Part shown: positions 37,620-60,186 of the stretch, one piece after another | Layout: every line of letters starts with the position of its first letter | Numbering within the stretch: the stretch's first letter is position 1 | Source: Candidatus Latescibacterota bacterium | GTDB taxonomy: Bacteria; Latescibacterota; UBA2968 | Direction: 5' to 3' | Assembly: GCA_965205975.1 (NCBI GenBank) | Contig: OZ242195.1 | Location: 3,030,656-3,094,655, forward strand | DNA: 64,000 bases | The notes under the pieces: model-generated | Database searches by the model: none | The model's input: only the letters and a program-made list of their open reading frames with translations | What the model was told of the DNA's origin: nothing | Program-made: the position numbers and the translations under genes

Positions 37620-38878
37620 GTAGCTCCGTGAAATAGGGGTCAGTGATTTTGTTTTAGGTACGTCATGTCCAGATAGCGTCTGCCTGTGATCCACTCATCA
37701 GACCATTCCATACACAACGCGCCGATGAGACGTTCACAAGCCTTCTGGTTGGGGAAGATCTGCACCACATCGGCACGTCTTTTGATCTCCCGGTTGAGTC
37801 TCTCCAACAGGTTGGTGGTACGAATGCGTCTTTGGTGCTGTTGTGGAAAGTGGAAGCAGGCCAGAGCATGGATAATATCCTGGTCTATCTTGTCCACGAG
37901 CTTGGGCAGTATCTCTTCATAGGTGTCCATCATAGCAGATAGGCGCGCTTGTGCAGTGGCCTGATCGGGGGCATTGAAAACGTCTTTGAGTGCTTGGGCA
38001 ACTTCGCGTTGATACTTAGGCGGTGTAATGCCTTTGACATTTCTGTGAAAATGGGTTTGACAATGCTGCCAAGAAGCCCCTTGAAAGTGTCGTTTGATGG
38101 CGTTTTGTAAGCCTTCGTGGTGGTCAGAGATAACCAGTTGCACACCCTTTAACCCACGCTTTTTAAGGTCTTTAAACAAATCCCCATACGTGGCTTCTGT
38201 CTCGGTGTGCGCCACGTCAATGGCCAAAATGTCGCGGTGCCCACTCTCTGCGATCCCAGAAACGATTAAGACGGCCTCAGAAGCGACCTGTCCTCGACTA
38301 CGGATGTGGAGATAGGTCGCATCAATGATCAGATAAGGGTATCCTTGCTCAAGGGAACGCCCCCGCCAGGCTTTAATATCTGCATCCAGGTCTTGACAAA
38401 GCTGTGAGACTTGGGACTTTGAAAAAGAGGTGCCACACAAGGCTTCTGTGATCTTTGTCACTTTGCGTGTGGAGACCCCTTGCAAATACGCCTCTTGAAG
38501 GGCAAGAATCAGTGCTTTTTCACTGCGTTGAAACCGTGAGAATAACGCACTGCTAAATCGTCCTTCCCGATCTTGAGGCACGCGCAGTTCGATACGGCCT
38601 ACGCGCGTCTTGAGGACACGAGGCTTATATCCGTTACGGTAGCCTGTCCGCTCGCCAGTTCTTTCATAAGGTTCTGCTTGTAAACACGACGTGATCTCGG
38701 CTTCCATAAACTGTTGCAGGAAGCGGGTGATGGCCTGATTGAGAAAATCAGGGTCATTCAAAAGTGCAAATTGCTCTGGCGCGGCAATTTTTATATCTTT
38801 GGGGTAAGTCATCGTAGCCTCCAAGGTTAGGGTTTATATTACTACTCACCCCTATTTTAAGATTTTTCTCGGAGCTAC
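37620..38878 (-). mobile_element. IS256-family insertion sequence (about 1.26 kb) with imperfect terminal inverted repeats.
   Basis: Left end GTAGCTCCGTGAAATAGGGGTCAG (37620-). Right end, as reverse complement, GTAGCTCCGAGAAAAATCTTAAAATAGGGGTGAG (-38878). A single mutator-type transposase ORF lies inside. No matching 8-bp target duplication is visible. Confidence 0.75.
37640..38824 (-). CDS. IS256-family (mutator-type) transposase.
   Basis: 394 aa. The N-terminal LNDPDFLNQAITRFLQQFMEAEITSCLQAEPYERT...YRNGYKPRVLKTRVGRIELRVPQDR and central DATYLHIR...VLIVSGI are characteristic of the IS256 transposase family. Confidence 0.85.
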   Translation of the reverse strand: MEATMTYPKDIKIAAPEQFALLNDPDFLNQAITRFLQQFMEAEITSCLQAEPYERTGERTGYRNGYKPRVLKTRVGRIELRVPQDREGRFSSALFSRFQRSEKALILALQEAYLQGVSTRKVTKITEALCGTSFSKSQVSQLCQDLDADIKAWRGRSLEQGYPYLIIDATYLHIRSRGQVASEAVLIVSGIAESGHRDILAIDVAHTETEATYGDLFKDLKKRGLKGVQLVISDHHEGLQNAIKRHFQGASWQHCQTHFHRNVKGITPPKYQREVAQALKDVFNAPDQATAQARLSAMMDTYEEILPKLVDKIDQDIIHALACFHFPQQHQRRIRTTNLLERLNREIKRRADVVQIFPNQKACERLIGALCMEWSDEWITGRRYLDMTYLKQNH

Positions 38879-39363
38879 GGTGACTTTTTTTCCTTTTTAC
38901 AGAAATTTAAGGACGCTATCTCCACTTCGTTGATCATGCGATAAACCACATCTCCAGATTTGTTGCGATCATAAAAACTCAATGGCAACTGGATCAAGTG
39001 GTCGAAAAGATGGCTCCTTATATCCAGCATCATGCGATTGTTTATCCAAGCAAATAGATAGTTTGAGCAAAAACCAATGATGATATTGCCGACTGTAACG
39101 CCCAGGAGCAGAAGCAAAATAAATATCAACAGCTCATAATCTTCATTTGGAAAAACATCATCAATGATAATTTTCATGATATAGGGAAAAGCCAACGAGC
39201 TAACAGTCCCCAGGATCATGAGAACAAAAACAATGCTTTGGTGTATCCAATAAGGTTTCAGAAATTTCAAGAAATGATAAAAGACATGTCCCTGCTTAGA
39301 GAGATTGAAAATGGCTGATATGACTGGTTGTTTGTTCTTCATATTCACCCGTGATGTAAACAA
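38875..39363 (-). pseudogene. Truncated ABC exporter gene. Only the N-terminal transmembrane domain fragment remains, and the reading frame runs into the IS256 right end.
   Basis: MKNKQPVISAIFNLSKQGHVFYHFLKFLKPYWIHQSIVFVLMILGTVSSLAFPYIMKIIIDDV...LPLSFYDRNKSGDVVYRMINEVE is the first about 150 aa of a type-I ABC exporter TMD. The TAG stop is formed by the IS terminal sequence ...GGAGCTAC. No ATPase domain follows. Confidence 0.7.
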
Positions 39364-39384: not shown

Positions 39385-39572
39385 AGACGCTCTTTGCTCG
39401 ATAAGCTCAAGTAAACCATTCTCTCAAGCTCATATTCCCAAATGCTTGAGCTTTGAACTGTTGCCTGCCCGCGCCGTCGCACGGCAGGCAGGTCTGCCGC
39501 CAATATTCGACTTGCCAGGGTCTGTCGGCGGCTTTTTATATTTAGAAATCCGGACAAATAGATAACCGCGTA
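39385..39572. repeat. About 190-bp structured repeat, copy 1 of 3 (other copies at 43785-43993 and a shorter one at 51245-51354).
   Basis: Near-identical sequence cttgata(g/a)gctcaagtaaa(a)ccattctctca(a/g)gctca(t/c)attcccaaatgcttgagctttgaactg + ttgcctgcccgcg(c/t)cgtcgcacggcaggcagg + tctgccgccaatattcgacttgccagggtctgtcggcggcttttt. It contains GCTCAAG/CTTGAGC pairing segments, a long GC hairpin and a terminal hairpin followed by a T-run. Confidence 0.85.
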
Positions 39573-42074
39573 TCAATCCTCCCGCAGGGCATCTATTGGG
39601 CTTGCAGAGGCGACCTTCAGCGCGTGTACGAAGCCACCTAACAAGGGAAGTAGAATGCCTGCGAAAATCGCCGCTAAAATCGTCCCAACCCCAAATTGAA
39701 AACGGTAAGCAAATATCGAAAGCCACTCATCCATAAAGAAATAAGACAGCGGTAGCGCGATAACGGCGGCTACAAACCCGGGCACTGCGTAGTTTAGCAC
39801 GATCCCACTGGCTATTTTGGATGGCACAGCACCCATGACCCGTCGAATGGCAATTTCCTTTCGCCTGCGCGCCACTGCCAGAGAGATCATGCCCAGGGCA
39901 CCCATTGACGCGATGAGAACAGCGCACAAAGCCGCCCCTGAGACGATTTTGCTCCAACTGATTTCTCTGGCATAAAATTTTTGTCTTTCATCTTCTATAT
40001 AAGAAAATCTCAAGGGGTGCTCTGTTTTAAGGTCTTCCCATACGCTTGTGAGATACGTACCAAAGGCTTCGGCACTGCCCTCTCGAATCCGAATCAATAT
40101 CTCTGCCGAGAAGGCACGTTGCAAAGTTGCATCCGTGCCTACGGTGATGATCGTCGGTGAAACCTTATGGCTCAAGTCTCTAACGTGAAAATCCTTAACG
40201 ACACCCACGATGCGACCACTGACATCACTGCCAAACACGCGCGATCTTAACTTTTCTTCTGCTGGACTGATCACCTCTCCGATAGGGTCTGACAACCGCA
40301 GATGCTTTTGAAAGACTTCATTTACGATCACATCGCCAGGCATCGGATTGGGATACAATGATCTCCCCTGCAAGAGTTGCAACCCAACCGTCTCGAGAAA
40401 AGGCCCCTTCACTTGATAATAGGTGACCTCATCTATGAGATTACCATGGCTATCTTTTATCAGGACTGAGTTTGACCAACCGAACGGCAAGTTCGTCCGT
40501 GCAGAGGATGCCACGAGCGGAGACGCAGATAAAGACGCTTGCAGGCGCCCCATCTCATTTTCGGTCAACCTACCCGTTTCGAGCCTGACCAGGTTCGCAG
40601 GTTCAAAGCCCGGCTCTGCCGTAAGAACAAAAAAAGTCTGTTCAAAGATGATGATCGTGCAAAAGACAAACACCAATGTCACACCCGATTGAACAGCCAT
40701 CAATACCTTCAAAAAGGGACCAGACCTGACTACCTTTGCTGTTTTGCTCAAAACGATGAGGGCAGATACAGACGACATAAAGGTCGCCGGATAAATGGCT
40801 GTGCCCAGACCAATCAGACAGGCAAGCGAAAGAATAATGGTCGCGGTCTGAACGGGATCTACTAAAGACGTAAAGGGGGTCCGCAAAACACCTTCAAGAG
40901 GACTTGAAGCCAACTCTGCAACCATCAATCCAATAACACAAGCCAACAGGCTGTATCCAAAGCATTCGACCAATAGCTGGTATCTGAGTTGCCGCTGGTT
41001 CGCACCAAAAATTTGCCTGATGCCCAATTCTTTGGTGCGTGAATTGAACCGTGCCACGTAGAGCAACACGTAATTCAGACACGCGACAGACAGAATTAGG
41101 ACACTGATACCGCTGAGAATATATCCATACAAAGGGTTGGTGCCAGGACGCACACCTTGGCTGCCCCCCCCCGACCCACTATGACTATGATGGTGCAACT
41201 CTGTGATGGGTTGAAGTTTGGCCCTTAAGGTCTCCAAATCCCAGAACGGGTTAGCGGGGTAATTTTGGATGATCCGTGTGAGCTTTCTCTCCACTTCCTT
41301 TATGTTGGCTTCGTCTGCCAGACGTATATAATGTGTGGATGTAAAATCCCAGCCCCGTCCACCTTCTTGCTTGTCGAGAAAGGTTGACGACATACTCAAG
41401 GGCAACAGAATCTCAAAATCCAGACTTGAATTTAGGGGAGGCGTTTCCACAATGCCCTCTATTTTTACAGGGACCACTGCTTTTTTTGTCGGGTTAAAAG
41501 ATAAAGACAATTTCGGAGGTGGTTGTATCCATAACACTTGACCTACTAAATTGCCAATATTGTTGGAAAGCGTCTGAGCGAATGCGCGTGTTATTGCGAC
41601 TTGCCCTGGACGTGAGAGGAATGTACCATGAATAAGCGGGAATGAAAAAATCTCCACGAAACTCCTATCTACCAACACGACCTTATCTATATCTCTCAGA
41701 AAATCTTTGTGAGTACCTACGTGCCAAATTCTCATATCAGGATGGGAAAAGGCACCAAGTATACGGGTTGTGGCCTCGATCTCAGGAATCTCGGCAGACA
41801 TCGCCGATGCCAATGAAACTGGAAAACTGGTAGGCTCAGCTCCTGTGCCCGCCAGAGGACCCATACCTATTTGTCTGAACTTTGCCTTCCCAGTAATGCG
41901 GTATATGCGATGATGGTCTTTGTGGAACTTATCAAAGCTCCAATCATACAGGACGTAAAGCACGCAAAGATAGGTGCAGGCAATCCCTATCCCCAAACCC
42001 AGCAGGTTAATGGCGGCATACGTTTTATATTTGAGAGCATTGCGAAACCAGGTTCGGAAATAATTGAAAAGCAT
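39573..42074 (-). CDS. FtsX-like ABC-transporter permease with a MacB-like periplasmic domain, duplicated 8-TM type (paralog 2).
   Basis: 833 aa. Starts directly with TM1 MLFNYFRTWFRNALKYKTYAAINLLGLGIGIAC. There are two FtsX-type 4-TM bundles, each preceded by a large extracytoplasmic domain. About 70-75% identical to 43994..46474. Confidence 0.8.
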   Translation of the reverse strand: MLFNYFRTWFRNALKYKTYAAINLLGLGIGIACTYLCVLYVLYDWSFDKFHKDHHRIYRITGKAKFRQIGMGPLAGTGAEPTSFPVSLASAMSAEIPEIEATTRILGAFSHPDMRIWHVGTHKDFLRDIDKVVLVDRSFVEIFSFPLIHGTFLSRPGQVAITRAFAQTLSNNIGNLVGQVLWIQPPPKLSLSFNPTKKAVVPVKIEGIVETPPLNSSLDFEILLPLSMSSTFLDKQEGGRGWDFTSTHYIRLADEANIKEVERKLTRIIQNYPANPFWDLETLRAKLQPITELHHHSHSGSGGGSQGVRPGTNPLYGYILSGISVLILSVACLNYVLLYVARFNSRTKELGIRQIFGANQRQLRYQLLVECFGYSLLACVIGLMVAELASSPLEGVLRTPFTSLVDPVQTATIILSLACLIGLGTAIYPATFMSSVSALIVLSKTAKVVRSGPFLKVLMAVQSGVTLVFVFCTIIIFEQTFFVLTAEPGFEPANLVRLETGRLTENEMGRLQASLSASPLVASSARTNLPFGWSNSVLIKDSHGNLIDEVTYYQVKGPFLETVGLQLLQGRSLYPNPMPGDVIVNEVFQKHLRLSDPIGEVISPAEEKLRSRVFGSDVSGRIVGVVKDFHVRDLSHKVSPTIITVGTDATLQRAFSAEILIRIREGSAEAFGTYLTSVWEDLKTEHPLRFSYIEDERQKFYAREISWSKIVSGAALCAVLIASMGALGMISLAVARRRKEIAIRRVMGAVPSKIASGIVLNYAVPGFVAAVIALPLSYFFMDEWLSIFAYRFQFGVGTILAAIFAGILLPLLGGFVHALKVASASPIDALRED

Positions 42075-43219: not shown

Positions 43220-43556
43220 GAGGATAATCCTTTCTTATCGTTGGCTCGGTGCCCCCAGTCTGTTTACCGAGAACACCAAGCCAATCTTGAGCCTATCAAG
43301 CTCGGTTGCACACTTTTTTCTATGATTAAGATCAGCAATTAAGAGTACACCTAAAGCTCACTCAGAAGAAAGAAGCCAGTCTAAAGTTCATAGAAAAGAA
43401 AAATGATCGAATTCACTTGAGATAGAACTTTTGCCCAGAGATGTGTGGGTATCTGTCAATCCAGGCGACTTCGATTCTTTTTATGAATTAGCAATACCTT
43501 AGACTGAATGATGGGTAGCTAAAGATGCTCTCAAGCATCAGAGATTCCAGCGCTAA

Positions 43557-43784: not shown

Positions 43785-43993
43785 TATTGAGTCAAGTTAA
43801 AGTGTGCTTGCCCTTACTTGATAGGCTCAAGTAAAACCATTCTCTCAGGCTCACATTCCCAAATGCTTGAGCTTTGAACTGTTGCCTGCCCGCGCTGTCG
43901 CACGGCAGGCAGGTCTGCCGCCAATATTCGACTTGCCAGGGTCTGTCGGCGGCTTTTTATATTTAAAAATTCGGACAAATAGATAACCGCGTA
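43785..43993. repeat. About 190-bp structured repeat, copy 2. It forms the entire intergenic region between FtsX permease paralog 1 and peptide gene 2.
   Basis: See the copy at 39385-39572. About 95% identical. Confidence 0.85.
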
Positions 43994-46474
43994 TCAATCC
44001 TCCCGCAGGGCATCTATTGGGCTTGCAGAGGCGACCTTCAGCGCGTGTACGAAGCCACCTAACAAGGGAAGTAGAATGCCTGCGAAAATCGCCGCTAAAA
44101 TCGTCCCAACCCCGAATTGAAAGCGGTAGGCAAACATCGAGAGCCAATCATCCATAAAGAAGTAGGAGAGAGGGAGTGCGATGATGGCAGCTATAAATCC
44201 GGGTAGTGCGTAGTTCAGCACAATGCCACTGGCTATTTTGGATGGCACAGCACCCATGACCCTTCGGATGGCGATTTCCTTTCGCCTGCGCGCCACTGCC
44301 AGAGAGATCATGCCCAGAGCACCCATTGACGCGATGAGAACCGTGCACAGGGCTGCGCCAGAGACGATTTTGCTCCAACTAATTTCTCTGGCATAAAATT
44401 TTTGTCTGTCATCTTCTACGAAGGAGAACCGCAACAACCCATTGATTTTCTGGTCTTTCCAAAGCTGTTCGAGATACGGGACAAATTCATCTGCACGGCC
44501 TTCTTCGATACGAACCAATATCTCTCCTAAGCTGGCTCGTTGCAAAGTCGCATCCGTACCAACGGTGATGATGGTCGGCGCAACCGTGTGGCTCAAGTCT
44601 CTAACGTGAAAATCTTTTACCACACCCACAATGCGTCCACTGACATCACTCCCAAACACTCGTGATCTTAACTTTTTTTCTGCTGGGCTGATCACCTCTC
44701 CAAGAGGCTCTGAAGACGTTAAGTGCTTTAGGAAGGCTTCATTCACGATTACATCGCCAGGGATAGGGTTTGGGTATAGCGACTTTCCGTGTAAGAGTTG
44801 CAACCCAACGGTATCGAGAAAAGGCCCATCCACTTGATAATAGGTGACCTCATCAATGAGTTTGCCACTGCTGTCTTTCATCAAAACTGTGTTTGACCAT
44901 CCGAAGGGCAGATTCGTCCGCACATAGAAGGTCACGAGTGGAGAGGCTGATAAAGATGCCTGCAGGCGGTTGATCTCATTTTTTTTCAAGCCATCAGTAT
45001 TGAGTTTGACGAGGTTCGTCGGGTCAAAACCTGGATACGTGGTGAGGATAAAAAAAGTCTGTTCAAAGATAATAATGGTGCAAAACACGAACACCAACGT
45101 CACGCCCGATTGGACTGCCATCAATACCTTTAAGAAAGGACCAGACCTGACAGCTTTTGAGGTCTTGCTCAAAACGCTGATGGCAGATATAGATGACATA
45201 AAGGTCACCGGATAAAGGGCTGTTCCTATCCCTATCAGACAAGCTAATATCAAGAGAATAATTGCGGTCTGAAGGGGTGCCACCGAGGACGTGAGTGGGG
45301 TCTGTAAAATACCTTCAAGGGGGGGTGATGCTAACTCTGCAACTGCCAGGCCTATGATGCAAGCCAAAATGCTGTATCCAAAGCCTTCGACCAATAGCTG
45401 GTGCGTGAGGTCCTGGCGGTTCGCGCCGAAGACTTGCCTAATGCCCAATTCTTTGGTGCGTGAATTGAACCGCGCCACGTAGAGCAACACGTAATTCAGA
45501 CAAGCGACGGACAAAATTAGGATACTCATACCACCGAGAATATATCCATATAAGGGACTGGTGATTCGACTCACACCATACACCCGCTGTCGTATCGATC
45601 CAGGATTATGGTGCATATCTGTGATGGGTTGAAGCCTGCTTTTAAAGGTATCTAAATTCCATAATGAGTTAAGAGAAGCCTGCTTTTGGATCAGTCTCGT
45701 AAGTTTTCCATCTAATGCCCCGATATCTGATCCATCTGTCAAACGGATGTAATGTGAGGATTGAAAGCGCCAGTCCCAATCTCCTTCTTCCCTGTCGAGA
45801 AAGGTTGCAGACATACTCAATGGCAAAAGTATCTCAAAATCCAGGCTCGAATTGCGGGGAGGCGTTTCCACAATACCCCCTATTTCAATAGGGGCTACTA
45901 TAGGTTCCAGGTCTTTAAAGAGACTATGAGAAAATCGCAGCCATAAGACTTTGCCAATCAAACTGTCAGTATCATTGGCCAGTGTTCGAGCGAATCTGCG
46001 CGTGATCACGACTTGCTCTGGTCGAGCCAAGAAAGTTCCGCGGATAAGCGGAAAAGAGAACATCTCCTCAAAACTTCTATCGACGAACAGTACCTTTTTG
46101 ATAGGGCGCAGAAAATTTCTGTGGGTACCCACATCCCAATTCGCAAGGTCACTCGTTACGCGGGTCGTAAGTTCAATCTCTGGAAACTCGGCAGACATCA
46201 TGGGTGATAGTGCAACAGGAAAAGACATTGTCTCAGTCCCTGTCCCTGCTTTAGGAGAGCTTCCTATTGTTTCGCTGTACTTTACCTTTCCTGCAACGCG
46301 ATAGATGCGCTGATGGTTTTCGTGAAATCTATCAAAGCTCCAATCGTACAGGATGTATAACACACAGAGATAGCAACACGCGATCCCGATTCCCAAACCC
46401 AGCAGATTAATCGTTGCATAAGCTCTATACTTGAGGATATTGCGAAACCATGTTCGGAAATAATTGAAAAGCAT
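43994..46474 (-). CDS. FtsX-like ABC-transporter permease with a MacB-like periplasmic domain (paralog 1).
   Basis: 826 aa. MLFNYFRTWFRNILKYRAYATINLLGLGIGIAC.... Same architecture as 39573..42074. Confidence 0.8.
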   Translation of the reverse strand: MLFNYFRTWFRNILKYRAYATINLLGLGIGIACCYLCVLYILYDWSFDRFHENHQRIYRVAGKVKYSETIGSSPKAGTGTETMSFPVALSPMMSAEFPEIELTTRVTSDLANWDVGTHRNFLRPIKKVLFVDRSFEEMFSFPLIRGTFLARPEQVVITRRFARTLANDTDSLIGKVLWLRFSHSLFKDLEPIVAPIEIGGIVETPPRNSSLDFEILLPLSMSATFLDREEGDWDWRFQSSHYIRLTDGSDIGALDGKLTRLIQKQASLNSLWNLDTFKSRLQPITDMHHNPGSIRQRVYGVSRITSPLYGYILGGMSILILSVACLNYVLLYVARFNSRTKELGIRQVFGANRQDLTHQLLVEGFGYSILACIIGLAVAELASPPLEGILQTPLTSSVAPLQTAIILLILACLIGIGTALYPVTFMSSISAISVLSKTSKAVRSGPFLKVLMAVQSGVTLVFVFCTIIIFEQTFFILTTYPGFDPTNLVKLNTDGLKKNEINRLQASLSASPLVTFYVRTNLPFGWSNTVLMKDSSGKLIDEVTYYQVDGPFLDTVGLQLLHGKSLYPNPIPGDVIVNEAFLKHLTSSEPLGEVISPAEKKLRSRVFGSDVSGRIVGVVKDFHVRDLSHTVAPTIITVGTDATLQRASLGEILVRIEEGRADEFVPYLEQLWKDQKINGLLRFSFVEDDRQKFYAREISWSKIVSGAALCTVLIASMGALGMISLAVARRRKEIAIRRVMGAVPSKIASGIVLNYALPGFIAAIIALPLSYFFMDDWLSMFAYRFQFGVGTILAAIFAGILLPLLGGFVHALKVASASPIDALRED

Positions 46475-47652: not shown

Positions 47653-47825
47653 GACTTATCACCCTTTCCCTATTGTAAAATCAGTGCTCCTGTAATATTT
47701 TGAGAGCACTGAGTCAATTTTGAGCCTATCAAGCTTGATTGCACACTTTTATTTTTTACTGAACATACTTCATTATGGCAATAAAAAAGATAAAATAGAA
47801 GACAGATCTCTTTAAAAGCCAGCCC

Positions 47826-48023: not shown

Positions 48024-48111
48024 AATATCACCTCCTTTCCTTATTGCGTCAAATCAAAGTGTGCTTGTCCTTACTTGATAGGCTCAAGTAAAACCGTTCT
48101 GTTCTTAAATA

Positions 48112-50913: not shown

Positions 50914-51207
50914 CTATTCGGGAATAAGTGAATGTGTATCAGTGGCTAATTTCTCATATATATACTTCGCGACCGAATGTGTCGAAGTTAGCATTTCTTC
51001 TGTGAGTTCTTCGTCCTCTACGATCACATCAAATGCATCCTCTAAGCCTGTCACCAGGGCCAGGGTAGAAATAGAGTCGAGTATAGAATTCAAAGGAAGA
51101 TTGTCCCAATCTATATCATCGGATGTGACTTCACGGTCTAATGCCTTCAGAACCAAATCTTGAATCTGATTCTCAATCTCAGATATTGTTATTGTATTTT
51201 TTGTCAT
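50914..51207 (-). CDS. Acyl/peptidyl carrier protein-like small acidic protein.
   Basis: 97 aa and acidic. LDSISTLALVTGLEDAF resembles the phosphopantetheine-attachment DSL motif and its helix. Confidence 0.45.
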   Translation of the reverse strand: MTKNTITISEIENQIQDLVLKALDREVTSDDIDWDNLPLNSILDSISTLALVTGLEDAFDVIVEDEELTEEMLTSTHSVAKYIYEKLATDTHSLIPE

Positions 51208-51244
51208 AAAATTTTATATCCGATTGCACGATGGTTGACAATCT

Positions 51245-51354
51245 ACCCCTCAAAAGATACCTTACTATCAAGCTCACATTCCCAAATGCTTGAGCTTTGA
51301 ACTGCAGTCTGCCGCCGACACTCGACTTGCCAGGGTCTGTCGGCGGCTTTTTTA
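51245..51354. repeat. About 110-bp shortened copy (copy 3) of the structured repeat. It lacks the central GC hairpin.
   Basis: ctatcaagctcacattcccaaatgcttgagctttgaactgcagtctgccgccgacactcgacttgccagggtctgtcggcggcttttttat. It has a perfect 10-bp stem GCCGCCGACA/TGTCGGCGGC followed by a T-run on the plus strand. Confidence 0.8.
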
Positions 51355-52722
51355 TCAATATGATGTGTTCTTTAACGCTTCTTCAGCCTTTGCCAAGTTT
51401 ATATTCCGAACACATCCTGAACGGCATTCCCAGCCCACACCTTCATAGTCAGCAATAGCAGCGATTTGCTCTCGCAAAGGATCGTTGCATAAATCAAGAA
51501 CGCGCTTGCCCTTCAAGATGGGTAAAATCGGTATATGAAACGAGGAAATGGGATGTGCGATCAACAGTAGGGAACATTCACATAGCGACTTGAGGGATTT
51601 TGTCAATTGTCCCTGCCACATCTTTCGGGCATCACTTTGAATATAAGTCGGCTCCACGTCCAAGAGGCCCAACTCCACTGACGGGTCATATGCGATCACA
51701 TGATACCCTTCTGAGATGAGCATGTTTCCGAGTTTTACGAATGGACTATCCCTCAAGTCGCCTGTATTGGGCTTAAAACTCAAACCCAACATACCCAGTG
51801 TTCCTCGAACGGCAAGCGACCTTACCCTCCTTACCGTGGACCTGATATGAAGATCATTACTGGCGATGATATTGGTCAGCAGAGGTAATTCGGGTTCTTG
51901 TCGTCCGTTAGATAGCCGCAGGAGTGCTGTAAGATCCTTCGGGAGACAGGATCCTCCGAATGCGAATCCCGGCCTCATGTAGGCTTTTGACATATTGAGC
52001 TTGTTGTCTGAGCACACGACCTCCATTACTCTATTGCTGTCTATCCCGAGATATCTGCAAATATTCGATATCTCATTCGTGAAAGTAACCTTCATAGCAT
52101 GAAAAGCATTGCATACATACTTCACCATTTCAGCGATCTCGTATTCGGTAATGTACACCGGCCCAGCTTCACCGTAAATATCTAACACGCGCTGGTAATA
52201 ACCAGTCTTTGGAGCACCAATGATCCGAATCGGAGGATCATTCAGGTCCTCCATTGCGCTTCCCTCTCTCAAGAACTCCGGATAATACCAGACATTGCCA
52301 AAATTCCCGAAGGCTCCAGAGGCGATATTACGCGTCGTACCGGGCGGAACAGTGCTGCGCAAAACTATGTCAAACATGCCTCTTTTCTTTTTCACTATCT
52401 CTACCAGTGACGTTACGGCCTGATAAAGAAAACACAGATTTGGTACTCCGTCTTTCTCACCTCGCGGCGTACCTACACAGATAATCGCTACACTCGCATC
52501 CTCGACAGCTTTGAAGTAGTCAGTCGAAAGCTGGAGCCTCCCACTTCTAAGTGCTGAACTTAGCAGGTCGCTTACGCGGGGTTCTGGTTCAGGTTCACCG
52601 GCAAAAAGATGGTGGATTCTCTCCTGGGAGACATCCAGACCTGTGACGATATGACCTCGTTCAAGCAAGTAGGCAATATTCACAATGCCGACATGGCCCA
52701 AACCAACTACACAAATTTTCAT
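51355..52722 (-). CDS. NDP-sugar dehydrogenase (UDP-glucose / UDP-ManNAc / GDP-mannose dehydrogenase family).
   Basis: N-terminal Rossmann MKICVVGLGHVGIVNIAYLL and catalytic-Cys block FGGSCLPKDL. 455 aa. Confidence 0.8.
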   Translation of the reverse strand: MKICVVGLGHVGIVNIAYLLERGHIVTGLDVSQERIHHLFAGEPEPEPRVSDLLSSALRSGRLQLSTDYFKAVEDASVAIICVGTPRGEKDGVPNLCFLYQAVTSLVEIVKKKRGMFDIVLRSTVPPGTTRNIASGAFGNFGNVWYYPEFLREGSAMEDLNDPPIRIIGAPKTGYYQRVLDIYGEAGPVYITEYEIAEMVKYVCNAFHAMKVTFTNEISNICRYLGIDSNRVMEVVCSDNKLNMSKAYMRPGFAFGGSCLPKDLTALLRLSNGRQEPELPLLTNIIASNDLHIRSTVRRVRSLAVRGTLGMLGLSFKPNTGDLRDSPFVKLGNMLISEGYHVIAYDPSVELGLLDVEPTYIQSDARKMWQGQLTKSLKSLCECSLLLIAHPISSFHIPILPILKGKRVLDLCNDPLREQIAAIADYEGVGWECRSGCVRNINLAKAEEALKNTSY

Positions 52723-54154: not shown

Positions 54155-55594
54155 TTACGAGGTTATTTCCAGATTATATCGTCGCTGCAACAAAGACGCA
54201 TCCTCTTCTGCAATCTCCATACACATCTCCATCGCCAGTTCATAGCGATAACGTGTCTGTTCACAAGCAACAGGGTTGGGGTACATCGGGTCCCCCGTCG
54301 TCGTCCGAGCATCCCAAAGACATCCACCACCACACAGATTGCGCGCCCAGCATGTCTTGCACTCTGGGCGATTATTCACATTGAACTGCGCGTCAAAATG
54401 CTGCTGCTTTTCGCGATCAATACCCACAAACACATCACCCATCTTAAACTCGGGTGCATCGGCCAGACTCGAGCAAAAATAAATTGATCCATCTGCTGCA
54501 ATAGCCAGATACTGCTTACCACCCAGGCATCCATGACAGGATTTTGCGCGCGTCAGCAATTTCTGAATCCGCGGATCAAACTCTTCACTCTCTTCACCAT
54601 TCAGAATAGCTTTGAGCGCACGGCGGCTCCGCCTGTAAATTTGTTGTTTCAAAACAGGTATGTGTTCTTCCCGAATGGCATAAGGCGCATCGGGGGAGAC
54701 AACCGCCGGACCGATGAGCGCGTTATCAGTACCCAATGAGCGCAAATCATCGGCAATCTCATCCTCATCCATATCATACGCTGTCATAATAGCTTGCAGG
54801 TACACGCGCTCAGGTGCCTCAGCAGTCAATTTCTGTACATTCTTTGCCACGACATCATAAGTACCAGAACCATTGTGAAACTTGCGAATACGGTCCTGTG
54901 TCTTACGTCCGCCATCCAGGCTGACTTTAATTTGAAACTTTTCATCGATCAAGAACTGCTTCATCTCGTCGGTCAACAGCGTGCCATTGGTCACAATGCC
55001 AAAACCAACCTGCACTCCCAGGCACGCGCCCAGAGATTTGGCAAATGGGACAAGCTCTCTCATCAATGGAAAATTCAGAAGCGGCTCCCCGCCAAAAAAA
55101 TCAATCTGGCACCGCCCCAAAGCCTGAGCTTCGGTGATGATCCAGCGTATCGATTGCTCGGCAACATCGGGTTGCATCAGCATCGCCTTACCGCCATAAT
55201 CCCCGCCATGTGCAAAGCAATAAGCACACTGAATATTGCATGTATGCGAAACGTGCAGCGACACCTGCAAACGATCTGTCTGTGATACCCCACAAGCTGC
55301 CACCCCTTCTGTCGTCGGCACCTGGGACACCAGAAGCAATGCACCATCCGCAATCAACCCCACCTGTGCCAATTCCTCAATAGCCTCGGCAATTTCCTCT
55401 GCCTCGTATTGATCGGCCAACGTCTGGACAACCTGTGAAGCAGATAAGCCCTCGCAACATTCTAAAATTGATTTGAAAAGGGGATCCAGTTCAAAAAACA
55501 GACCTGTCTCAATCTGATAGACAATCGGCTGATTTTGCTCTTCAGTTTGAAAAAGATGTATGTCGCATTTCTGAATGCATAGCATGCCAGGCAC
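54155..55594 (-). CDS. Radical SAM / SPASM-domain enzyme (peptide-modifying maturase or anSME-like).
   Basis: CNIQCAYC (CxxxCxxC) radical-SAM cluster motif. C-terminal SPASM cysteine array CHGCLGGKQY...FCSS...CKTCWARNLCGGGCLWD. 479 aa. Confidence 0.8.
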   Translation of the reverse strand: MPGMLCIQKCDIHLFQTEEQNQPIVYQIETGLFFELDPLFKSILECCEGLSASQVVQTLADQYEAEEIAEAIEELAQVGLIADGALLLVSQVPTTEGVAACGVSQTDRLQVSLHVSHTCNIQCAYCFAHGGDYGGKAMLMQPDVAEQSIRWIITEAQALGRCQIDFFGGEPLLNFPLMRELVPFAKSLGACLGVQVGFGIVTNGTLLTDEMKQFLIDEKFQIKVSLDGGRKTQDRIRKFHNGSGTYDVVAKNVQKLTAEAPERVYLQAIMTAYDMDEDEIADDLRSLGTDNALIGPAVVSPDAPYAIREEHIPVLKQQIYRRSRRALKAILNGEESEEFDPRIQKLLTRAKSCHGCLGGKQYLAIAADGSIYFCSSLADAPEFKMGDVFVGIDREKQQHFDAQFNVNNRPECKTCWARNLCGGGCLWDARTTTGDPMYPNPVACEQTRYRYELAMEMCMEIAEEDASLLQRRYNLEITS

Positions 55595-55613: not shown

Positions 55614-55790
55614 TTACTCAGGCTGATCAAAATTGTCCCAATCGTCATCATCAGGGAACGGCATGGGGGGAACAGTAATAGGATAAGGGGTACAGCCAAC
55701 TTCAAAACTATCCGTCGTCTGATATGTGCTAATACCACCCTCTTTATCCATTGTTCCATTGATCAAGATCAACTTGCGTCGAGTCGTCAT
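55614..55790 (-). CDS. Unannotated 58-aa ORF, putative precursor peptide for the adjacent radical-SAM/SPASM enzyme.
   Basis: GGAGGATAAT-ATG RBS. Translation MTTRRKLILINGTMDKEGGISTYQTTDSFEVGCTPYPITVPPMPFPDDDDWDNFDQPE. Ends 20 nt before the rSAM start codon. Below the 60-aa cutoff of the ORF track. Confidence 0.55.
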   Translation of the reverse strand: MTTRRKLILINGTMDKEGGISTYQTTDSFEVGCTPYPITVPPMPFPDDDDWDNFDQPE

Positions 55791-55849: not shown

Positions 55850-55864
55850 GCAAGATCCGTGCCT
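55850..55864 (-). promoter_or_regulatory. Sigma-54 (-24/-12) promoter upstream of the peptide and rSAM operon.
   Basis: The minus strand reads AGGCACGGATCTTGC, which fits GG-N10-GC with TTGC at -12 (consensus TGGCAC-N5-TTGC). About 60 nt upstream of the peptide ATG. Confidence 0.55.
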
Positions 55865-56103: not shown

Positions 56104-59100
56104 CTATCTCAACCCCAGACGATTCATCTTTCTATACAAGCTGGCGCGCACCAACCCCAGTTCTTCGGCCGTACGCTTAATATTACCCTCGTATTTTTCG
56201 AGCGCATCCATAATCAACCGTTTCTCATACTCCTGCATACTATCTTTTAAATGTCCCTGGTATTCGACAGAGACACCCGACATCGCGTGGCCGACAGCTT
56301 CCGAAAACAAATCGGGCGTAATTGCACCATCTTCTTCTACCAATGCAACCGCACGCCGAATCTCATTCTCCAACTCGCGCACATTACCCGGCCAGTTGTA
56401 ATTTGTAAGTGCCCTGATTGCACCTACTGTCAGCCCGCCAACCGACTTGTTTGCCTCTTCCTTTGCCCGAATGAGCAAATGTTCGGCCAATAACGGCACA
56501 TCTTCCATGCGTTCTCGTAAAGGCGGCATATCGATCTGAATCACGTGCAACCGATAATACAAATCTTCGCGGAAAGAGCCTTTTTCTACTTCTTTTTTTA
56601 AGTCTCGATTGGTCGCTGCAATAATGCGTACATCTACTGCGCGATCCTCTGTTTCTCCCACACGCCTAATCTCTCCTTCTTGCAACACCCGCAACAAACT
56701 CCTTTGCAATGGTGGCGGGGCATCGCCGATTTCATCTAAAAAGACCGTACCCCCATTAGCCGTCTCAAAAACCCCCTTATGATCTTCAGTCGCGCCAGTA
56801 AACGCCCCTTTTTTATGACCAAACAACTCACTCTGCAACAGCTCTGGTGAAAGGGCAGCACAATTTTGCGACAAAAAACGCTGGTCTTTACGTGTACTAT
56901 TGTAGTGTATGGAACGCGCAGCTAATTCTTTGCCAGTACCTGTTTTGCCTTGCACAAGCACGGGAATATCGCTTTTTGCCGCACGTTCTATAAGCCGGTA
57001 GATCGCCTGCATCGCATCACTTTGCCCAAACAGATCGCCAAGCTGGTGCTGTCTTTCGACCTCTTGCTGCAAATATCGCGCTTTCTCTTCCAATTGTTCG
57101 TACATCCTCGCATTGACCAGTGCTACACCCACCAGATTCGCAAATGCTTGTAAAAACGTCTGGTCTGCTTCAGAAAATGCGTTGCCTATGCCGCGATGAT
57201 CCACATATAGGGCACCCATTACACCTTCGCTAACATGAAATAGAGGCACACACAATACAGACCGAATGTTGTAGTCTATCACACTCTGATATTGATTTAG
57301 CCTATCGTCTGTTTGTGCATCAAGGCTCAAAACGGGTTCATTTGTTTCAATAACCCGACGAATAATACCCCCACTCAATTCTTCTGCATCATTCGATTCT
57401 AAATTGTGGTGGCGCACCACATCAACTACAAAGTCTTTTGGAGTCTCATTTTTAATCGCAACAATCACCCGCTCTGCTGAATAGACAGCCAACAAATTGC
57501 CCAAAGTTCCATCCAATAGCACCTTGACATCGTGCTCTGTTGTTAATTCCTGGCTCATATCATAGAGCAAATTCCAACGATCAACAGACAACGCACCAAC
57601 TGGAACCTCAGAACTGGATACGGTATCCTCACCGCGATGGAGCGTTGGAGCGGCATCCCTGCCGCGACCATCTTCGTCGCGAGATAATTGATTTAATAAC
57701 ACCTGTGTTTTCTCCAAAAAATAGGACATTTCCATTTCCTCAAACGCCTGTTTTGCCGCTTCGAGATGTGCTTGCGCTTTTGGCATATCATCGCGCTGGA
57801 GATAAAACTCCCCAGCCATCAGCAATGCCCGCGCCCAGTGGTCGCCTTTGGATTCTCTGCGACATTCAATTGCCTGCTCAAAAGCCTCTTCAGCCTCAGC
57901 AATTCGCCCTGCCTGAGCAAAAGCCGCACCAATACCGCAATATACCAGGGGCAATATGCCTGTGTACATACCCGATATTTGTTGCGTACCTTCTTTGGCT
58001 TTTTCAGCCCATTCAAGTGCTGTTTCACCATTTCCCATTCTCGCAGCAGCCGTTGCCGCAATTGCATAAGCGCGATAGATATAATCTTTTCGCGGTGTTT
58101 CCAAAAATCGCTCTGATGAAATCTCGGCATATTCCAATGCCTCGGCAAAATCATCGCGTTCCAGAGCCAATTCCCCAAGCCATAGGAAATTTGCTGCTTC
58201 CCAATACACACCCCCTCGCTTCTGCCACTCACCAATGACCTCATAACAAACGGCTTCAGCACCATTGAAATCCCCCAAATAAAAATAAATTCTTTGAAGT
58301 GCATTGAGTGCCCAAACGCGATGGTGCTCTAAACCAAGTTGTCTAAAGATCTTTACAACAGTTTCTAAATAGCCCTTAGCTGTCTCAAATCGAAATTCCA
58401 CTAATGCGGCCTGGCCTTCTCGTCCTTGTATAAAAGCCTGGTTTTGTGGATCTCCCGACTCACGGAGTTTCTCTATTTCCCGACGCATATACGCAATTGA
58501 TTCTTCGTGCCGACCAGACACATCACACAAATAAGACAAGCTGCTTAACGCCTGAATTTCGCCATCGAAATCACCGAGTTCACGATAAAGCTGCAATGCC
58601 TCCAGCATATATCCTTCTGCAATTTCACCATGTTGAAGTACGCTGTGAATCTCACCCTGGTCGTTTAAAATACGCGCTTTCAAATCTTTCCGATCAGCGG
58701 GCAATAATGCATTTGCTTCGTCTAAAAGTTTTAGTGCGCAATTGTATTCACTACAATTGCGAAACACATCTGCATAATCGCACAAAAAATCGATAGCATC
58801 TGCAGGTAATTCAAAAACGTCATCCGCTGTCCAGTCCCTCACTGCCTCGAACCGTCTCAATGCCTGGCGATACGCTTGTACCTCCAATGCTTTTTTACCC
58901 GCCAGACACATATATTTCACAGCCTTATCTCGTTCTTCTGCCGCCGCAAAATGATCCGCCAATTCTTCCGTCAATTCTTCTGCATCACCCGTCTCTTCCA
59001 GAGCATTGCCAATTTCTCGATGCAACAGACGCCGCCGCACATCTTGCATGCGGTCATAAATTGCACGCCGACACAAATCCTGTGAAAATCGATAGCGGTC

Positions 59101-60186
59101 TTCATCCTCTCCACAAGCAGCCAAAAGCCCTTCCGCAATCAAGTCATCCAGCATATCCAGCAATTCTAACTCATCACCGCGCCAAACTGCAGCCAATAAT
59201 TCGAAAGAAAAATCACTTAAAAAAACACAGGCGTATTCCAGCACCCGCTGTTGCATAGCAGGCAGGGTTGCTATGCGCCTGTACAAAACCTCTGAAAAGT
59301 CATTGGATAATAATGTTTCGGGAAACTCTCCCCACTGCCAATCGCCAGACACATCTTGCCGAACCACATCGGCATGCACCAGTGTCCTTATCGCCTCCAC
59401 GACAAACAGGGGTTGTCCGCCTGTTTCTCTGAACAGGGTTTGCAATGCATCCGACGGTATGGATCGCTCCCCTAACATCGACGCCGCTAAATATCCCACC
59501 TCTTCTTGTTGTAGATACTCCAACTGCATCTGGGTCGCTTCAGCAAATTCATTACTATGTATAAAATTCTCAATTTCCTCTGAAAGCGGTTCCAGATTAG
59601 ACCATCGGCAAGTCAGACATAACAAAAACGGGCACGGTTCTGGATCGCGCAACACATACTGCAAAAATTCCAGAGTCAATTCATCAAGCCATTGAATATC
59701 TTCCAAACACAACACAATGGGCTGTTTCTGTCGCAGACTTTTTAGTAACTGCAACCAGCGCTCCATAACAGAAAACTTGTCGGTCTCTAATGAATCGGGC
59801 AACTCTGCCATCAAATCCGTCGTCCCTTGAAAAGCCCTGATCAACGCACCGTATATTTGTCCGCCCTCTTCCTGCCCTGCGCCCTTCAAACATAGAAAAT
59901 CGTGGATCAGAGCGTCGCCCAACAGTTCTTCGGCCAGTCTCGATTTACCTACTCCCGCCTCACCCGAGATCAAAACCACGCGCTGCTTGCCAGCCTGTAC
60001 ATCCTGTAACATCGCACTCAGTATCTTCATTTCAGATTCCCGCCCGACAAATTGTGGGCGCACAACTTTTCTATGCACATCGCGCTGCTCGTCCTCCAGC
60101 AGCACAAGCTCCGATGGTAAGGCACGTACCAGTTCCTCTGCCGACTGATAACGATCAACACGCTCCTTTGCCAGCAACTTCAGCAC
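56104..60186 (-). CDS. Sigma-54-dependent transcriptional activator with a giant N-terminal sensor: STAND/AAA ATPase, TPR-like array, GAF, sigma-54 AAA+, Fis-type HTH. It is the C-terminal 1360 aa of a frameshift-split kinase fusion.
   Basis: P-loop VVLISGEAGVGKSRLAEELL. A long TPR-like helical-repeat region. GAF-like segment about residues 880-1030. Sigma-54 interaction domain VLVQGKTGTGKELAARSIHYNS...GAFTGA...GGTVFLDEIGD. C-terminal HTH IKRTAEELGLVRASLYRKMNRLGL. The first residues LKLLAKERVDRYQSAEELVRAL are the end of a protein-kinase domain. Confidence 0.75.
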   Translation of the reverse strand: MLKLLAKERVDRYQSAEELVRALPSELVLLEDEQRDVHRKVVRPQFVGRESEMKILSAMLQDVQAGKQRVVLISGEAGVGKSRLAEELLGDALIHDFLCLKGAGQEEGGQIYGALIRAFQGTTDLMAELPDSLETDKFSVMERWLQLLKSLRQKQPIVLCLEDIQWLDELTLEFLQYVLRDPEPCPFLLCLTCRWSNLEPLSEEIENFIHSNEFAEATQMQLEYLQQEEVGYLAASMLGERSIPSDALQTLFRETGGQPLFVVEAIRTLVHADVVRQDVSGDWQWGEFPETLLSNDFSEVLYRRIATLPAMQQRVLEYACVFLSDFSFELLAAVWRGDELELLDMLDDLIAEGLLAACGEDEDRYRFSQDLCRRAIYDRMQDVRRRLLHREIGNALEETGDAEELTEELADHFAAAEERDKAVKYMCLAGKKALEVQAYRQALRRFEAVRDWTADDVFELPADAIDFLCDYADVFRNCSEYNCALKLLDEANALLPADRKDLKARILNDQGEIHSVLQHGEIAEGYMLEALQLYRELGDFDGEIQALSSLSYLCDVSGRHEESIAYMRREIEKLRESGDPQNQAFIQGREGQAALVEFRFETAKGYLETVVKIFRQLGLEHHRVWALNALQRIYFYLGDFNGAEAVCYEVIGEWQKRGGVYWEAANFLWLGELALERDDFAEALEYAEISSERFLETPRKDYIYRAYAIAATAAARMGNGETALEWAEKAKEGTQQISGMYTGILPLVYCGIGAAFAQAGRIAEAEEAFEQAIECRRESKGDHWARALLMAGEFYLQRDDMPKAQAHLEAAKQAFEEMEMSYFLEKTQVLLNQLSRDEDGRGRDAAPTLHRGEDTVSSSEVPVGALSVDRWNLLYDMSQELTTEHDVKVLLDGTLGNLLAVYSAERVIVAIKNETPKDFVVDVVRHHNLESNDAEELSGGIIRRVIETNEPVLSLDAQTDDRLNQYQSVIDYNIRSVLCVPLFHVSEGVMGALYVDHRGIGNAFSEADQTFLQAFANLVGVALVNARMYEQLEEKARYLQQEVERQHQLGDLFGQSDAMQAIYRLIERAAKSDIPVLVQGKTGTGKELAARSIHYNSTRKDQRFLSQNCAALSPELLQSELFGHKKGAFTGATEDHKGVFETANGGTVFLDEIGDAPPPLQRSLLRVLQEGEIRRVGETEDRAVDVRIIAATNRDLKKEVEKGSFREDLYYRLHVIQIDMPPLRERMEDVPLLAEHLLIRAKEEANKSVGGLTVGAIRALTNYNWPGNVRELENEIRRAVALVEEDGAITPDLFSEAVGHAMSGVSVEYQGHLKDSMQEYEKRLIMDALEKYEGNIKRTAEELGLVRASLYRKMNRLGLR

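What the first reader, a model, noticed from the sequence alone, without database searches (positions are those of the whole stretch)
39385..39572. Three copies of a ~190-bp highly structured repeat inside the low-GC island (39385-39572, 43785-43993, 51245-51354)
Two full copies sit immediately 3' of the two FtsX permease genes. A shortened third copy lies between the NDP-sugar dehydrogenase and ACP genes. Sequence identity is above 90%.

Each copy contains mutually exclusive pairing segments (GCTCAAG with either of two CTTGAGC partners), a long GC hairpin, and a perfect 10-bp hairpin followed by a T-run on the plus strand. That T-run orientation is opposite to all flanking genes.

This fits a small antisense or structured RNA, a MITE-like element, or a recombination scar of the duplication, and does not fit a simple terminator.
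Basis: seen in the sequence. Interest (0 to 1): 0.6.

Follow-up and report, generated by a model that had tools for sequence, protein, structure and literature searches.

The report
Antisense small-RNA gene plus decayed copies
The repeat is real: its short third copy looks like an intact, undescribed small-RNA gene on the strand opposite a peptide natural-product gene cluster of an uncultured Latescibacterota bacterium, and the two long copies are promoter-less derivatives carried in a 4.4-kb duplication.

Summary
Three plus-strand copies exist (39420-39538, 43841-43959, 51264-51353), and none is expected by chance. No Rfam family matches.

Related Latescibacterota genomes added 37 copies. All lie in the same radical-SAM peptide (RiPP-type) cluster, 3-5 per cluster where 20 kb was read, and all are antisense to the neighbouring genes.

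- **Intact copies (16).** These include window copy 3. Each has a perfect TTGACA, a 17-nt spacer and TAYYTT, then a 5' hairpin and a 10/10-bp terminator stem with T5-T8. Their hexamers are conserved while the spacers and 5' hairpins differ between subtypes. The conserved unit begins at or near the promoter hexamers and ends at the T-run.
- **Promoter-less copies (24).** These include window copies 1 and 2. They have linker insertions, such as the "long GC hairpin", weaker stems and mostly broken T-runs. Promoter and intact T-run are associated (p = 3e-7).

Copies 1 and 2 are 94-98% identical only within a ~500-bp tract that also covers 350 nt of FtsX coding sequence.

Best reading (0.55): copy 3 is a gene for an ~84-nt small RNA, and copies 1-2 are derivatives. 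Their sense transcripts would be 31-33 nt perfectly complementary to that RNA. No expression data exist.

The parts
51235..51240 (+). -35 hexamer TTGACA of the proposed small-RNA promoter. It is the centre of the palindrome GGTTGACAA(T/C)C.
   Evidence: Sequence. Perfect TTGACA with a 17-nt spacer is present in 16 copies from at least 10 genomes.
51258..51263 (+). -10 hexamer TACCTT (TATCTT in most orthologues). The predicted start is near A51270.
   Evidence: The hexamer is conserved as TAYYTT while the 17-nt spacer differs completely between subtypes.
51264..51353 (+). Copy 3, the canonical intact unit. The predicted RNA is about 84 nt (~51270-51353).
   Evidence: 117.7 bits against model R1. 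It folds at -34.3 kcal/mol, z = -4.2.
51268..51300 (+). 5' hairpin: 13 pairs with two bulges and a CCCA loop. It contains the invariant block CACATTCCCAAATGCTTGAGCTTTGAAC.
   Evidence: In the 14-copy set most single-site changes give G.U on this strand (8 wobble cells) and mismatches on the other.
51311..51347 (+). Terminator hairpin: a 10-bp GC-rich basal stem (GCCGCCGACA/TGTCGGCGGC) and a 5-bp apical stem with two U.G pairs.
   Evidence: C-G to U-A double change in 5 copies; 10/10 pairs in all promoter-bearing copies.
51348..51353 (+). T6 run. It stops 1 nt before the stop codon of the convergent dehydrogenase gene (51355-51357).
51213..51241 (-). Candidate divergent promoter for the ACP-like gene: TTGTCA, 17 nt, TATAAA. 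It ends 5 nt before the ATG at 51207, shares the -35 palindrome and implies a near-leaderless mRNA.
   Evidence: Read from the sequence. Conserved in orthologous loci. Inference only.
43841..43959 (+). Copy 2, a promoter-less derivative. It lies between the FtsX stop (43994) and the 69-aa peptide gene (start 43766).
   Evidence: 94.4 bits. No TTGACA-17-TAYYTT. 9/10 stem pairs and T5.
43884..43912 (+). GC-rich hairpin inserted in the linker of copy 2.
   Evidence: Absent from copy 3 and from the other canonical copies. Other promoter-less copies carry unrelated insertions at the same place.
43814..43834 (+). Palindrome TTACTTGA-TAGGC-TCAAGTAA just 5' of copy 2. It supplies the second CTCAAG partner and is one arm of the inverted repeat that flanks the peptide gene.
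39420..39538 (+). Copy 1, a promoter-less derivative. It lies between the FtsX stop (39573) and the IS-truncated ABC transporter gene (start 39363).
   Evidence: 93.9 bits. No promoter. 9/10 stem pairs and T5.
39463..39491 (+). GC-rich hairpin inserted in the linker of copy 1.
39427..39927 (.). Tract that is 94-98% identical to 43848-44348. It covers copy 1 and the last ~350 nt of the FtsX gene and looks like a recent homogenisation (gene-conversion) tract inside an older duplication.
   Evidence: The rest of the 4.4-kb units is 55-85% identical.
48098..48109 (+). Remnant (TCTGTTCTTAAA) of a fourth copy at the redoxin-to-peptide junction. The flanks are kept and the body is deleted.
   Evidence: Compared with filled junctions in L003, L007, L008, L019, L020 and L023.

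Best explanation
**What it is.** The repeat is a lineage-specific family of small-RNA genes. It sits in the intergenic junctions of a radical-SAM/SPASM peptide (RiPP-type) gene cluster of Latescibacterota, always on the strand opposite to the genes.

**Copy 3 (shown from sequence).** Window copy 3 (51235-51353) is the intact gene. It has a sigma-70-type promoter (TTGACA, 17 nt, TACCTT). The predicted non-coding RNA is about 84 nt. It has a 5' hairpin carrying an invariant 28-nt block, a short linker, and a 15-bp interrupted terminator hairpin followed by T6.

**Its setting.** Copy 3 would be transcribed divergently from the ACP-like gene, with which it shares a palindromic -35. It runs convergent to the dehydrogenase gene and stops at that gene's stop codon.

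**Copies 1 and 2.** These are paralogous copies that have lost the promoter. They have gained a GC hairpin in the linker and were multiplied by the 4.4-kb tandem duplication of the peptide / beta-propeller / FtsX unit.

**Mechanism (inferred, not shown).** The flanking genes have no terminator of their own in these gaps. Sense transcripts should therefore run through all the copies. The small RNA would be fully complementary to the read-through RNA at its own locus. It would be perfectly complementary over 27-33 nt and 31 nt to the sense RNA at copies 1 and 2. Such long duplexes would be expected to direct RNase III-type cleavage, or to change stability or translation. That would couple the expression of the cluster's units.
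For: **Promoter**
- TTGACA-17-TAYYTT is present in 16 of 40 copies.
- The hexamers are kept while the 17-nt spacer (ACCTACCCCTCAAAAGG versus ATCGCGCTTCAGGTTGC) and the 5' hairpin differ completely between subtypes.

**Promoter and terminator travel together**
- All 16 promoter copies have T>=5 and 10/10 stem pairs.
- Of the 24 promoter-less copies, only 5 have T>=5, and the mean is 8.2/10 pairs. Fisher p = 3e-7.

**Unit boundaries**
- In different genomic contexts, conservation begins at or near the promoter hexamers and ends at the T-run.

**Structure**
- Pairing in promoter copies is 98.4% on the element strand against 90.7% on the gene-sense strand. Promoter-less copies show 84.2% against 83.4%.
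- In the 14-copy set most single-site changes in the 5' hairpin give G.U on the element strand (8 wobble cells, 5 unpaired) and mismatches on the other.
- 11 pairs have changes on both sides, against 5.5 in shuffles.
- The fold has z = -4.2.

**Position and distribution**
- The canonical copy upstream of the ACP-like gene is present in every related cluster in which that junction was recovered.
- All 40 copies are antisense to their neighbouring genes.
- The family is cluster-specific. There are none in the other ~44 kb of the window. Exact core matches fall in at most two loci per complete chromosome.

**Non-coding**
- The longest ORF is ATG-CTT-GAG-CTT-TGA (sequence).
Against: - There is no transcript evidence of any kind.
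- All genomes carrying the element are close relatives (cluster proteins are 63-94% identical). Conservation could therefore partly be inertia, and orthologous copies are not independent observations.
- The -10 hexamer matches TATAAT at only 3-4 of 6 positions, and the promoter consensus of this phylum is unknown.
- Most of the strand asymmetry comes from two constant U.G pairs.
- The covariation count was made on an alignment fitted to the model.
- Promoter-less copies keep the 28-nt block at 75-100% per position. This fits a target-site role, but equally fits a DNA-level site or gene conversion.
- The promoter-less copy at the redoxin-to-peptide junction is missing in 4 of 10 clusters, so that copy is dispensable.
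- A duplex scan against the translation start regions in the window gave nothing above background.
Confidence: 0.55

Rival explanations
1. The functional strand is the gene-sense strand. The repeat would be a cis element of the operon mRNA or of the DNA. It could be a leader or processing module: a stable 5' or 3' hairpin plus a conserved 28-nt box. Alternatively, it could be the binding site of the cluster's own regulator (an AraC-type response regulator in sister clusters), placed upstream of each transcription unit.
For: - Every copy lies just upstream of the next gene in the same orientation relative to it.
- The 28-nt block stays conserved in copies that have lost promoter, T-run and 5' hairpin pairing.
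- The sense strand folds about as well.
- Sister clusters encode a response regulator with an AraC-type DNA-binding domain next to the copies.
Against: - It does not explain why a perfect TTGACA-17-TAYYTT and a perfect stem with T5-T8 on the opposite strand co-occur so strictly.
- Short variants keep the promoter and terminator but replace the 28-nt block with another hairpin.
- The apical stem is mismatched (C.A) on the sense strand in nearly all copies.
- The window itself has no AraC-type regulator gene in the cluster.
Confidence: 0.2
2. The repeat is a non-functional duplicative scar. An intergenic junction was copied around the cluster by segmental duplication and gene conversion, and the promoter-like and terminator-like features have no role.
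For: - Copies 1 and 2 lie in a 4.4-kb tandem duplication with a ~500-bp homogenised tract.
- Many copies are visibly decaying, and one junction has lost its copy.
- All carriers are close relatives.
- More distant homologous clusters (54-58% identical protease) lack the element.
Against: - Copies sit at junctions with unrelated flanks, so simple segmental duplication does not account for them.
- The canonical copy is kept intact at one position in every cluster in which that position was recovered.
- Hexamers are conserved with diverged spacers, which points to selection on a promoter.
- Promoter and terminator integrity are tightly linked.
Confidence: 0.15
3. The repeat is a MITE-like or REP-like selfish element that carries a one-way terminator. 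Only insertions antisense to operons survive, which would explain the uniform orientation.
For: - It is multi-copy, intergenic and hairpin-rich, and all 40 copies are in the non-terminating orientation.
- Its linker accepts insertions.
- Insertion sequences are nearby: 37640-38824 in the window, and others in L002 and L020.
Against: - There are no terminal inverted repeats of 12 nt or more.
- Copy number is very low and confined to one gene cluster.
- There were no hits in the metagenome collection beyond chance matches.
- Copies occupy the same junctions in different genomes, which points to inheritance rather than fresh insertions.
Confidence: 0.1

Closest known systems
GadY of Escherichia coli (a cis-encoded antisense small RNA in the gadX-gadW intergenic region that directs RNase III processing of the operon mRNA)
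   Same: It is a short RNA with its own promoter and terminator. It is encoded opposite to an intergenic gap inside a co-directional gene set, and is therefore fully complementary to read-through mRNA.
   Different: There is no sequence or Rfam similarity. Here the gene is repeated 3-5 times per cluster, and most copies are promoter-less. Processing and expression are untested.
Multicopy sibling small RNAs and repeated type I antitoxin RNAs (for example Qrr, LhrC, Sib/Ibs)
   Same: Several paralogous units share a conserved terminator module but differ in their 5' parts. They are clustered in one genomic region.
   Different: There is no toxin ORF opposite (the small ORFs here look like peptide precursors). 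Only some copies keep a promoter. The copies are interleaved with the genes of one biosynthetic cluster.
Structured intergenic repeats that carry promoters or terminators (Correia/NEMIS elements of Neisseria, REP/BIME, ERIC)
   Same: They are hairpin-rich intergenic repeats that are co-transcribed with neighbouring genes and can supply promoter or terminator activity.
   Different: Those repeats have terminal inverted repeats, tens to hundreds of genome-wide copies and both orientations. None of that is seen here.
Intrinsic (Rho-independent) terminator
   Same: The 3' module is a textbook GC-rich stem plus T-run on the + strand.
   Different: It terminates nothing but the 84-nt unit itself. 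It faces the wrong way for every annotated gene. Its loop sequence is conserved across copies, and it is preceded by a conserved 5' hairpin and a promoter.

Membership tests
Any Rfam 15 family | Score at or above the family's gathering threshold | tested here: not met
   There were no hits in the whole window at gathering thresholds. Permissive scans of copy 1, copy 3 and a short variant gave only chance-level hits with E of 0.6-10.
Intrinsic terminator | GC-rich stem immediately followed by a U-tract on the transcribed strand | tested here: met
   Copy 3 has 10/10 pairs plus T6 on the + strand. Copies 1 and 2 have 9/10 plus T5. On the - strand the stem is followed by AGAC..., with no U-tract.
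Intrinsic terminator | Ends a gene or operon transcribed on the same strand | tested here: not met
   All neighbouring genes are on the - strand. The only + strand unit upstream is the ~84-nt element itself.
Cis-encoded antisense small RNA (GadY type) | Own promoter on the strand opposite to the genes | tested here: met
   TTGACA-17-TACCTT lies at 51235-51263. The same hexamers and spacing occur in 16 copies with diverged spacers. This is a consensus match only, and activity was not measured.
Cis-encoded antisense small RNA (GadY type) | A discrete transcript that overlaps a sense transcript | not testable with these tools
   This needs strand-specific RNA-seq or a Northern blot. There is no sense-strand terminator in the gaps, so overlap is expected but not shown.
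Cis-encoded antisense small RNA (GadY type) | Duplex-dependent processing or regulation of the target | not testable with these tools
   Only the complementarity is shown: 33 and 31 nt perfect to copy 2, and 27 and 31 nt perfect to copy 1.
MITE / REP-like mobile repeat | Terminal inverted repeats at the ends of the unit | tested here: not met
   No inverted repeats of 12 nt or more bracket any copy. The ends are a -35 hexamer and a T-run.
MITE / REP-like mobile repeat | Many copies dispersed over the genome, in both orientations | tested here: not met
   Exact core matches occur at 1-2 loci per complete 5.6-6.3-Mb chromosome, and nearly all of these loci carry recognisable genes of this cluster. 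There are none outside the cluster in the window. All 40 copies have the same orientation relative to the genes. Whole genomes could not be searched with the model.
Riboswitch / transcription attenuator leader | Lies on the coding strand upstream of the regulated gene, with conserved alternative pairings that include the terminator | tested here: not met
   The terminator faces away from the downstream gene. The alternative CTCAAG partner belongs to a palindrome present only next to promoter-less copies and is itself variable (CTCCAG, CTCCAA). The canonical copies have a single partner.

The most novel reading that the evidence does not exclude
One small RNA has built-in target sites. The intact gene (copy 3 type) would make an RNA whose promoter-less paralogues act as ready-made, perfectly complementary docking sites. 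These paralogues lie antisense in the leaders of the peptide-precursor and exporter units. A single RNA would then co-ordinate processing or translation of every unit of a natural-product cluster. Targets would be gained or lost simply by copying or deleting the RNA gene.
Probability: 0.2. Interest if true: 0.7.

Novelty: new member of a known kind. Interest (0 to 1): 0.42.

Why it matters
Regulation of peptide natural-product clusters in uncultured phyla is essentially unknown. This would be a cluster-specific small RNA with a recognisable promoter and terminator. It would give a first handle on promoter and terminator signals in Latescibacterota. It would also be a candidate switch to consider when such clusters are moved into a laboratory host. 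In addition, the set shows one RNA-gene family caught in several states: intact copies, promoter-less copies, copies with insertions and a deleted copy.

Tried and rejected
- **Rfam.** Gathering and permissive scans gave nothing.
- **Exact look-up of the FtsX protein.** It is not on record.
- **Metagenome scan with a 19-mer of the core.** It returned 8 hits, all unrelated chance matches in coding DNA of other organisms.
- **More distant homologous clusters.** Clusters whose protease is 54-58% identical (L021, L022, L026) have no copy at E <= 1. No deep divergence was therefore available for a covariation test.
- **Duplex prediction.** The RNA against the translation start regions of 18 window genes gave nothing better than random background. 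It gives no support for a Shine-Dalgarno-targeting role of the UUCCC loop.
- **Riboswitch or attenuator reading.** Rejected on orientation and because the alternative pairing is not conserved.
- **Integron attC or other recombination site.** Considered from memory only. No recombinase gene was seen in the domain scans of the cluster, and the idea was not pursued.
- **Small protein.** The longest reading frame in the unit is 4 codons.
- **Literature.** Two searches found no description of this element or of RNA regulators in such clusters.

Full report
**1. The observation**

The three copies are real. Two core blocks (27 and 25 nt) occur exactly three times, all on the + strand, with none expected by chance. 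A covariance model built later finds only these three in the 64-kb window, even without filters: 39420-39538, 43841-43959 and 51264-51353.

All neighbouring genes are on the - strand. Reading along the - strand, the neighbourhood holds:
- a radical-SAM/SPASM maturase with a PqqD-like domain (54155-55594);
- a DUF354 protein and a UDP-glucose/GDP-mannose-type dehydrogenase;
- copy 3;
- an ACP-like protein, an S8 protease fused to DUF1611 (related to QhpE and TIGR04066 maturation proteins), and a redoxin;
- two tandem units, each with a 65-69-aa peptide, a DUF5128 beta-propeller and an FtsX/MacB permease, and each followed by a copy;
- an ABC transporter gene truncated by an IS256-family transposase.

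This is a RiPP-type cluster.

Several details in the finding need correction:
- The GC hairpin is absent from copy 3.
- The perfect 10-bp stem is present only in copy 3.
- There is one CTTGAGC with two CTCAAG partners, not the reverse.
- The 97% identity of copies 1 and 2 continues for 350 nt into the FtsX coding sequence. The rest of the duplication is 55-85% identical. This points to a homogenised tract rather than selection on the element.

**2. Relatives**

Rfam has nothing. An exact scan of one genome per species with a 22-mer of the core found 10 loci. All are in Candidatus Latescibacterota assemblies, apart from one 4.5-kb contig binned as Gammaproteobacteria. Each complete chromosome has only one or two such loci. 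Nearly all of the loci carry recognisable genes of this cluster.

The metagenome scan gave only chance hits. Homologues of the protease led to five further clusters with 88-92% identical proteins, which carry 4-5 copies each. They also led to three clusters with 54-58% identity, which carry none.

In total, 40 copies were aligned. Every one is antisense to its neighbouring genes.

**3. Two classes of copy**

*Intact copies.* Sixteen copies have a perfect TTGACA, a 17-nt spacer and TAYYTT, ending 0-3 nt before the aligned unit begins. All sixteen have a 10/10-bp basal terminator stem and a run of 5-8 T.

*Promoter-less copies.* Of the other 24 copies, only 5 have 5 or more T. Their stems average 8.2/10 pairs (Fisher p = 3e-7, though orthologous copies are not independent). 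They also carry unrelated insertions of 6-100 nt in the linker.

*Subtypes of the intact class.* The intact class includes a short subtype (L006:5395, L008:1310, L019:8232). It has the same hexamers and spacing. Its spacer is entirely different, its 5' hairpin is different (UCUCAAG-N7-CUUGAGA), and its terminator stem has a C-G to U-A double change. Hexamers conserved while spacers diverge are what selection on a promoter would produce.

*Boundaries and position.* Where flanks differ between genomes, conservation begins at or near the promoter hexamers and stops at the T-run. The intact copy just upstream of the ACP-like gene is present in every cluster in which that junction was recovered. 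The promoter-less copy at the redoxin-to-peptide junction is present in six clusters and lost in four. The window is among the four and keeps only a 12-nt remnant (48098-48109).

*Window copies.* Copy 3 belongs to the intact class. Copies 1 and 2 are promoter-less, although their stems and T5 are still good.

**4. Strand**

Both strands fold about equally well as single sequences. Across copies, the evidence leans to the element strand:
- For the original 14 copies, the element strand pairs at 95.9% against 88.4% for the gene-sense strand.
- For promoter-bearing copies the figures are 98.4% against 90.7%. For promoter-less copies they are 84.2% against 83.4%.
- In the 14-copy set most single substitutions in the 5' hairpin give G.U on the element strand (8 wobble cells against 5 unpaired), and give mismatches on the gene-sense strand.
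- Much of the overall difference comes from two constant U.G pairs in the apical stem, so it is not many independent events.
- On the 40-copy alignment, 11 pairs show changes on both sides against 5.5 in shuffles. That alignment was fitted to the model and the sequences are related.

The structural evidence is therefore supportive, not decisive.

**5. Mechanism**

*Shown from sequence.* Copy 3 is a compact unit with a promoter-like site, two hairpins and a terminator on the + strand. It has no coding capacity.

*Inferred.* It yields an RNA of about 84 nt. This RNA would be transcribed divergently from the ACP-like gene. The two share the palindrome GGTTGACAA(T/C)C as -35. On the - strand, TTGTCA-17-TATAAA ends 5 nt before the ATG. 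The RNA would terminate 1 nt from the stop codon of the convergent dehydrogenase gene.

No sense-strand terminator is present in any of the gaps, so sense transcripts should cross the copies. The RNA would then be fully complementary to read-through RNA at its own locus. It would be perfectly complementary over 33 + 31 nt to the sense RNA of copy 2, and over 27 + 31 nt to that of copy 1.

In the promoter-less copies, the invariant 28-nt block and the apical part of the terminator stay conserved. The left arm of the 5' hairpin, the stem base and the T-run decay. That pattern fits retention as pairing sites. It also fits a DNA-level site or gene conversion. I rate the small-RNA-gene reading at 0.55, and the built-in-target extension at about 0.2.

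**6. Rivals**

- **Sense-strand or DNA-level regulatory module (0.2).** It explains the position and orientation. It does not explain the linkage of promoter and terminator on the other strand.
- **Functionless duplicative scar (0.15).** It fits copies 1 and 2 and the decay. It does not fit the invariant intact copy.
- **Mobile repeat with orientation filtering (0.1).** It lacks terminal repeats, copy number and dispersal.

**7. Comparison and novelty**

The element works most like a cis-encoded antisense RNA of an operon gap, such as GadY. It resembles multicopy sibling RNA families in having a shared terminator module with variable 5' parts. It is not a member of any described family.

I class it as a new member of a known kind. 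It is of moderate interest because of the host phylum, the link to a natural-product cluster, and the visible series of intact, disabled and deleted copies.

Noticed in passing
window 43286-43300 / 43817-43831 and 47720-47754 / 48051-48087: Each small peptide gene (69 aa and 65 aa, sharing the N-terminus MKTLTKPV...IYGYE) is bracketed by an inverted repeat, CTTGAGCCTATCAAG...GCACACTTT, with arms 340-516 nt apart. As RNA this would form a long-range stem that loops out the whole peptide ORF and could be a processing stalk. As DNA it could mark an invertible or mobile segment. No recombinase gene was seen nearby.
   Followed up: partly
window 55614-55790 (-) and 55850-55863 (-): An unlisted 58-aa ORF (MTTRRKLILINGTMDKEGG...DDDDWDNFDQPE) lies just upstream of the radical-SAM maturase and is probably its precursor peptide. 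It is preceded by a sigma-54-type motif, GGCACGGATCTTGC. A 1360-aa sigma-54 activator (AAA16-TPR-GAF) and a Ser/Thr kinase lie next door (56104-60961).
   Followed up: partly
window 37640-39363: An IS256-family (Mutator) transposase gene has cut the cluster's ABC transporter gene down to 162 aa. Sister clusters have 589-655 aa, followed by rhodanese and MauE/DoxX genes that are missing here.
   Followed up: partly
window 39427-39927 vs 43848-44348: There is a sharp step in identity inside the 4.4-kb tandem duplication: 94-98% here against 55-85% elsewhere. This suggests recent gene conversion over the 3' end of the FtsX genes and the adjacent repeat.
   Followed up: yes
L006:5485-5570, L019:8322-8400 (upstream of the short variant): The palindromes GTGAACATAATGTTCAC and TTGAACATTATGTTC lie between the short RNA variant and the AraC-type response-regulator gene. 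They look like an operator for a dimeric regulator.
   Followed up: no
L003, L008, L020, L023 (tails of the promoter-less copies at the redoxin-to-peptide junction): In the promoter-less copies at this junction, the former T-run reads TGATATAAAT or TGATATAAT on the gene-sense strand. That is an extended -10-like motif overlapping the redoxin stop codon. If it is active, the peptide mRNA would start at the repeat and carry its complement as leader.
   Followed up: no
L005 (VXYV01000024.1): A 4.5-kb contig labelled Gammaproteobacteria (sponge MAG SB0670_bin_2) carries this cluster with 82-95% protein identity to the window. It is probably a binning error.
   Followed up: no
L021:9332-9877: In a distant homologous cluster (55% identical protease) without the repeat, a NusG-family paralogue gene sits directly upstream of the protease gene. 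This hints at antitermination-type control there.
   Followed up: no
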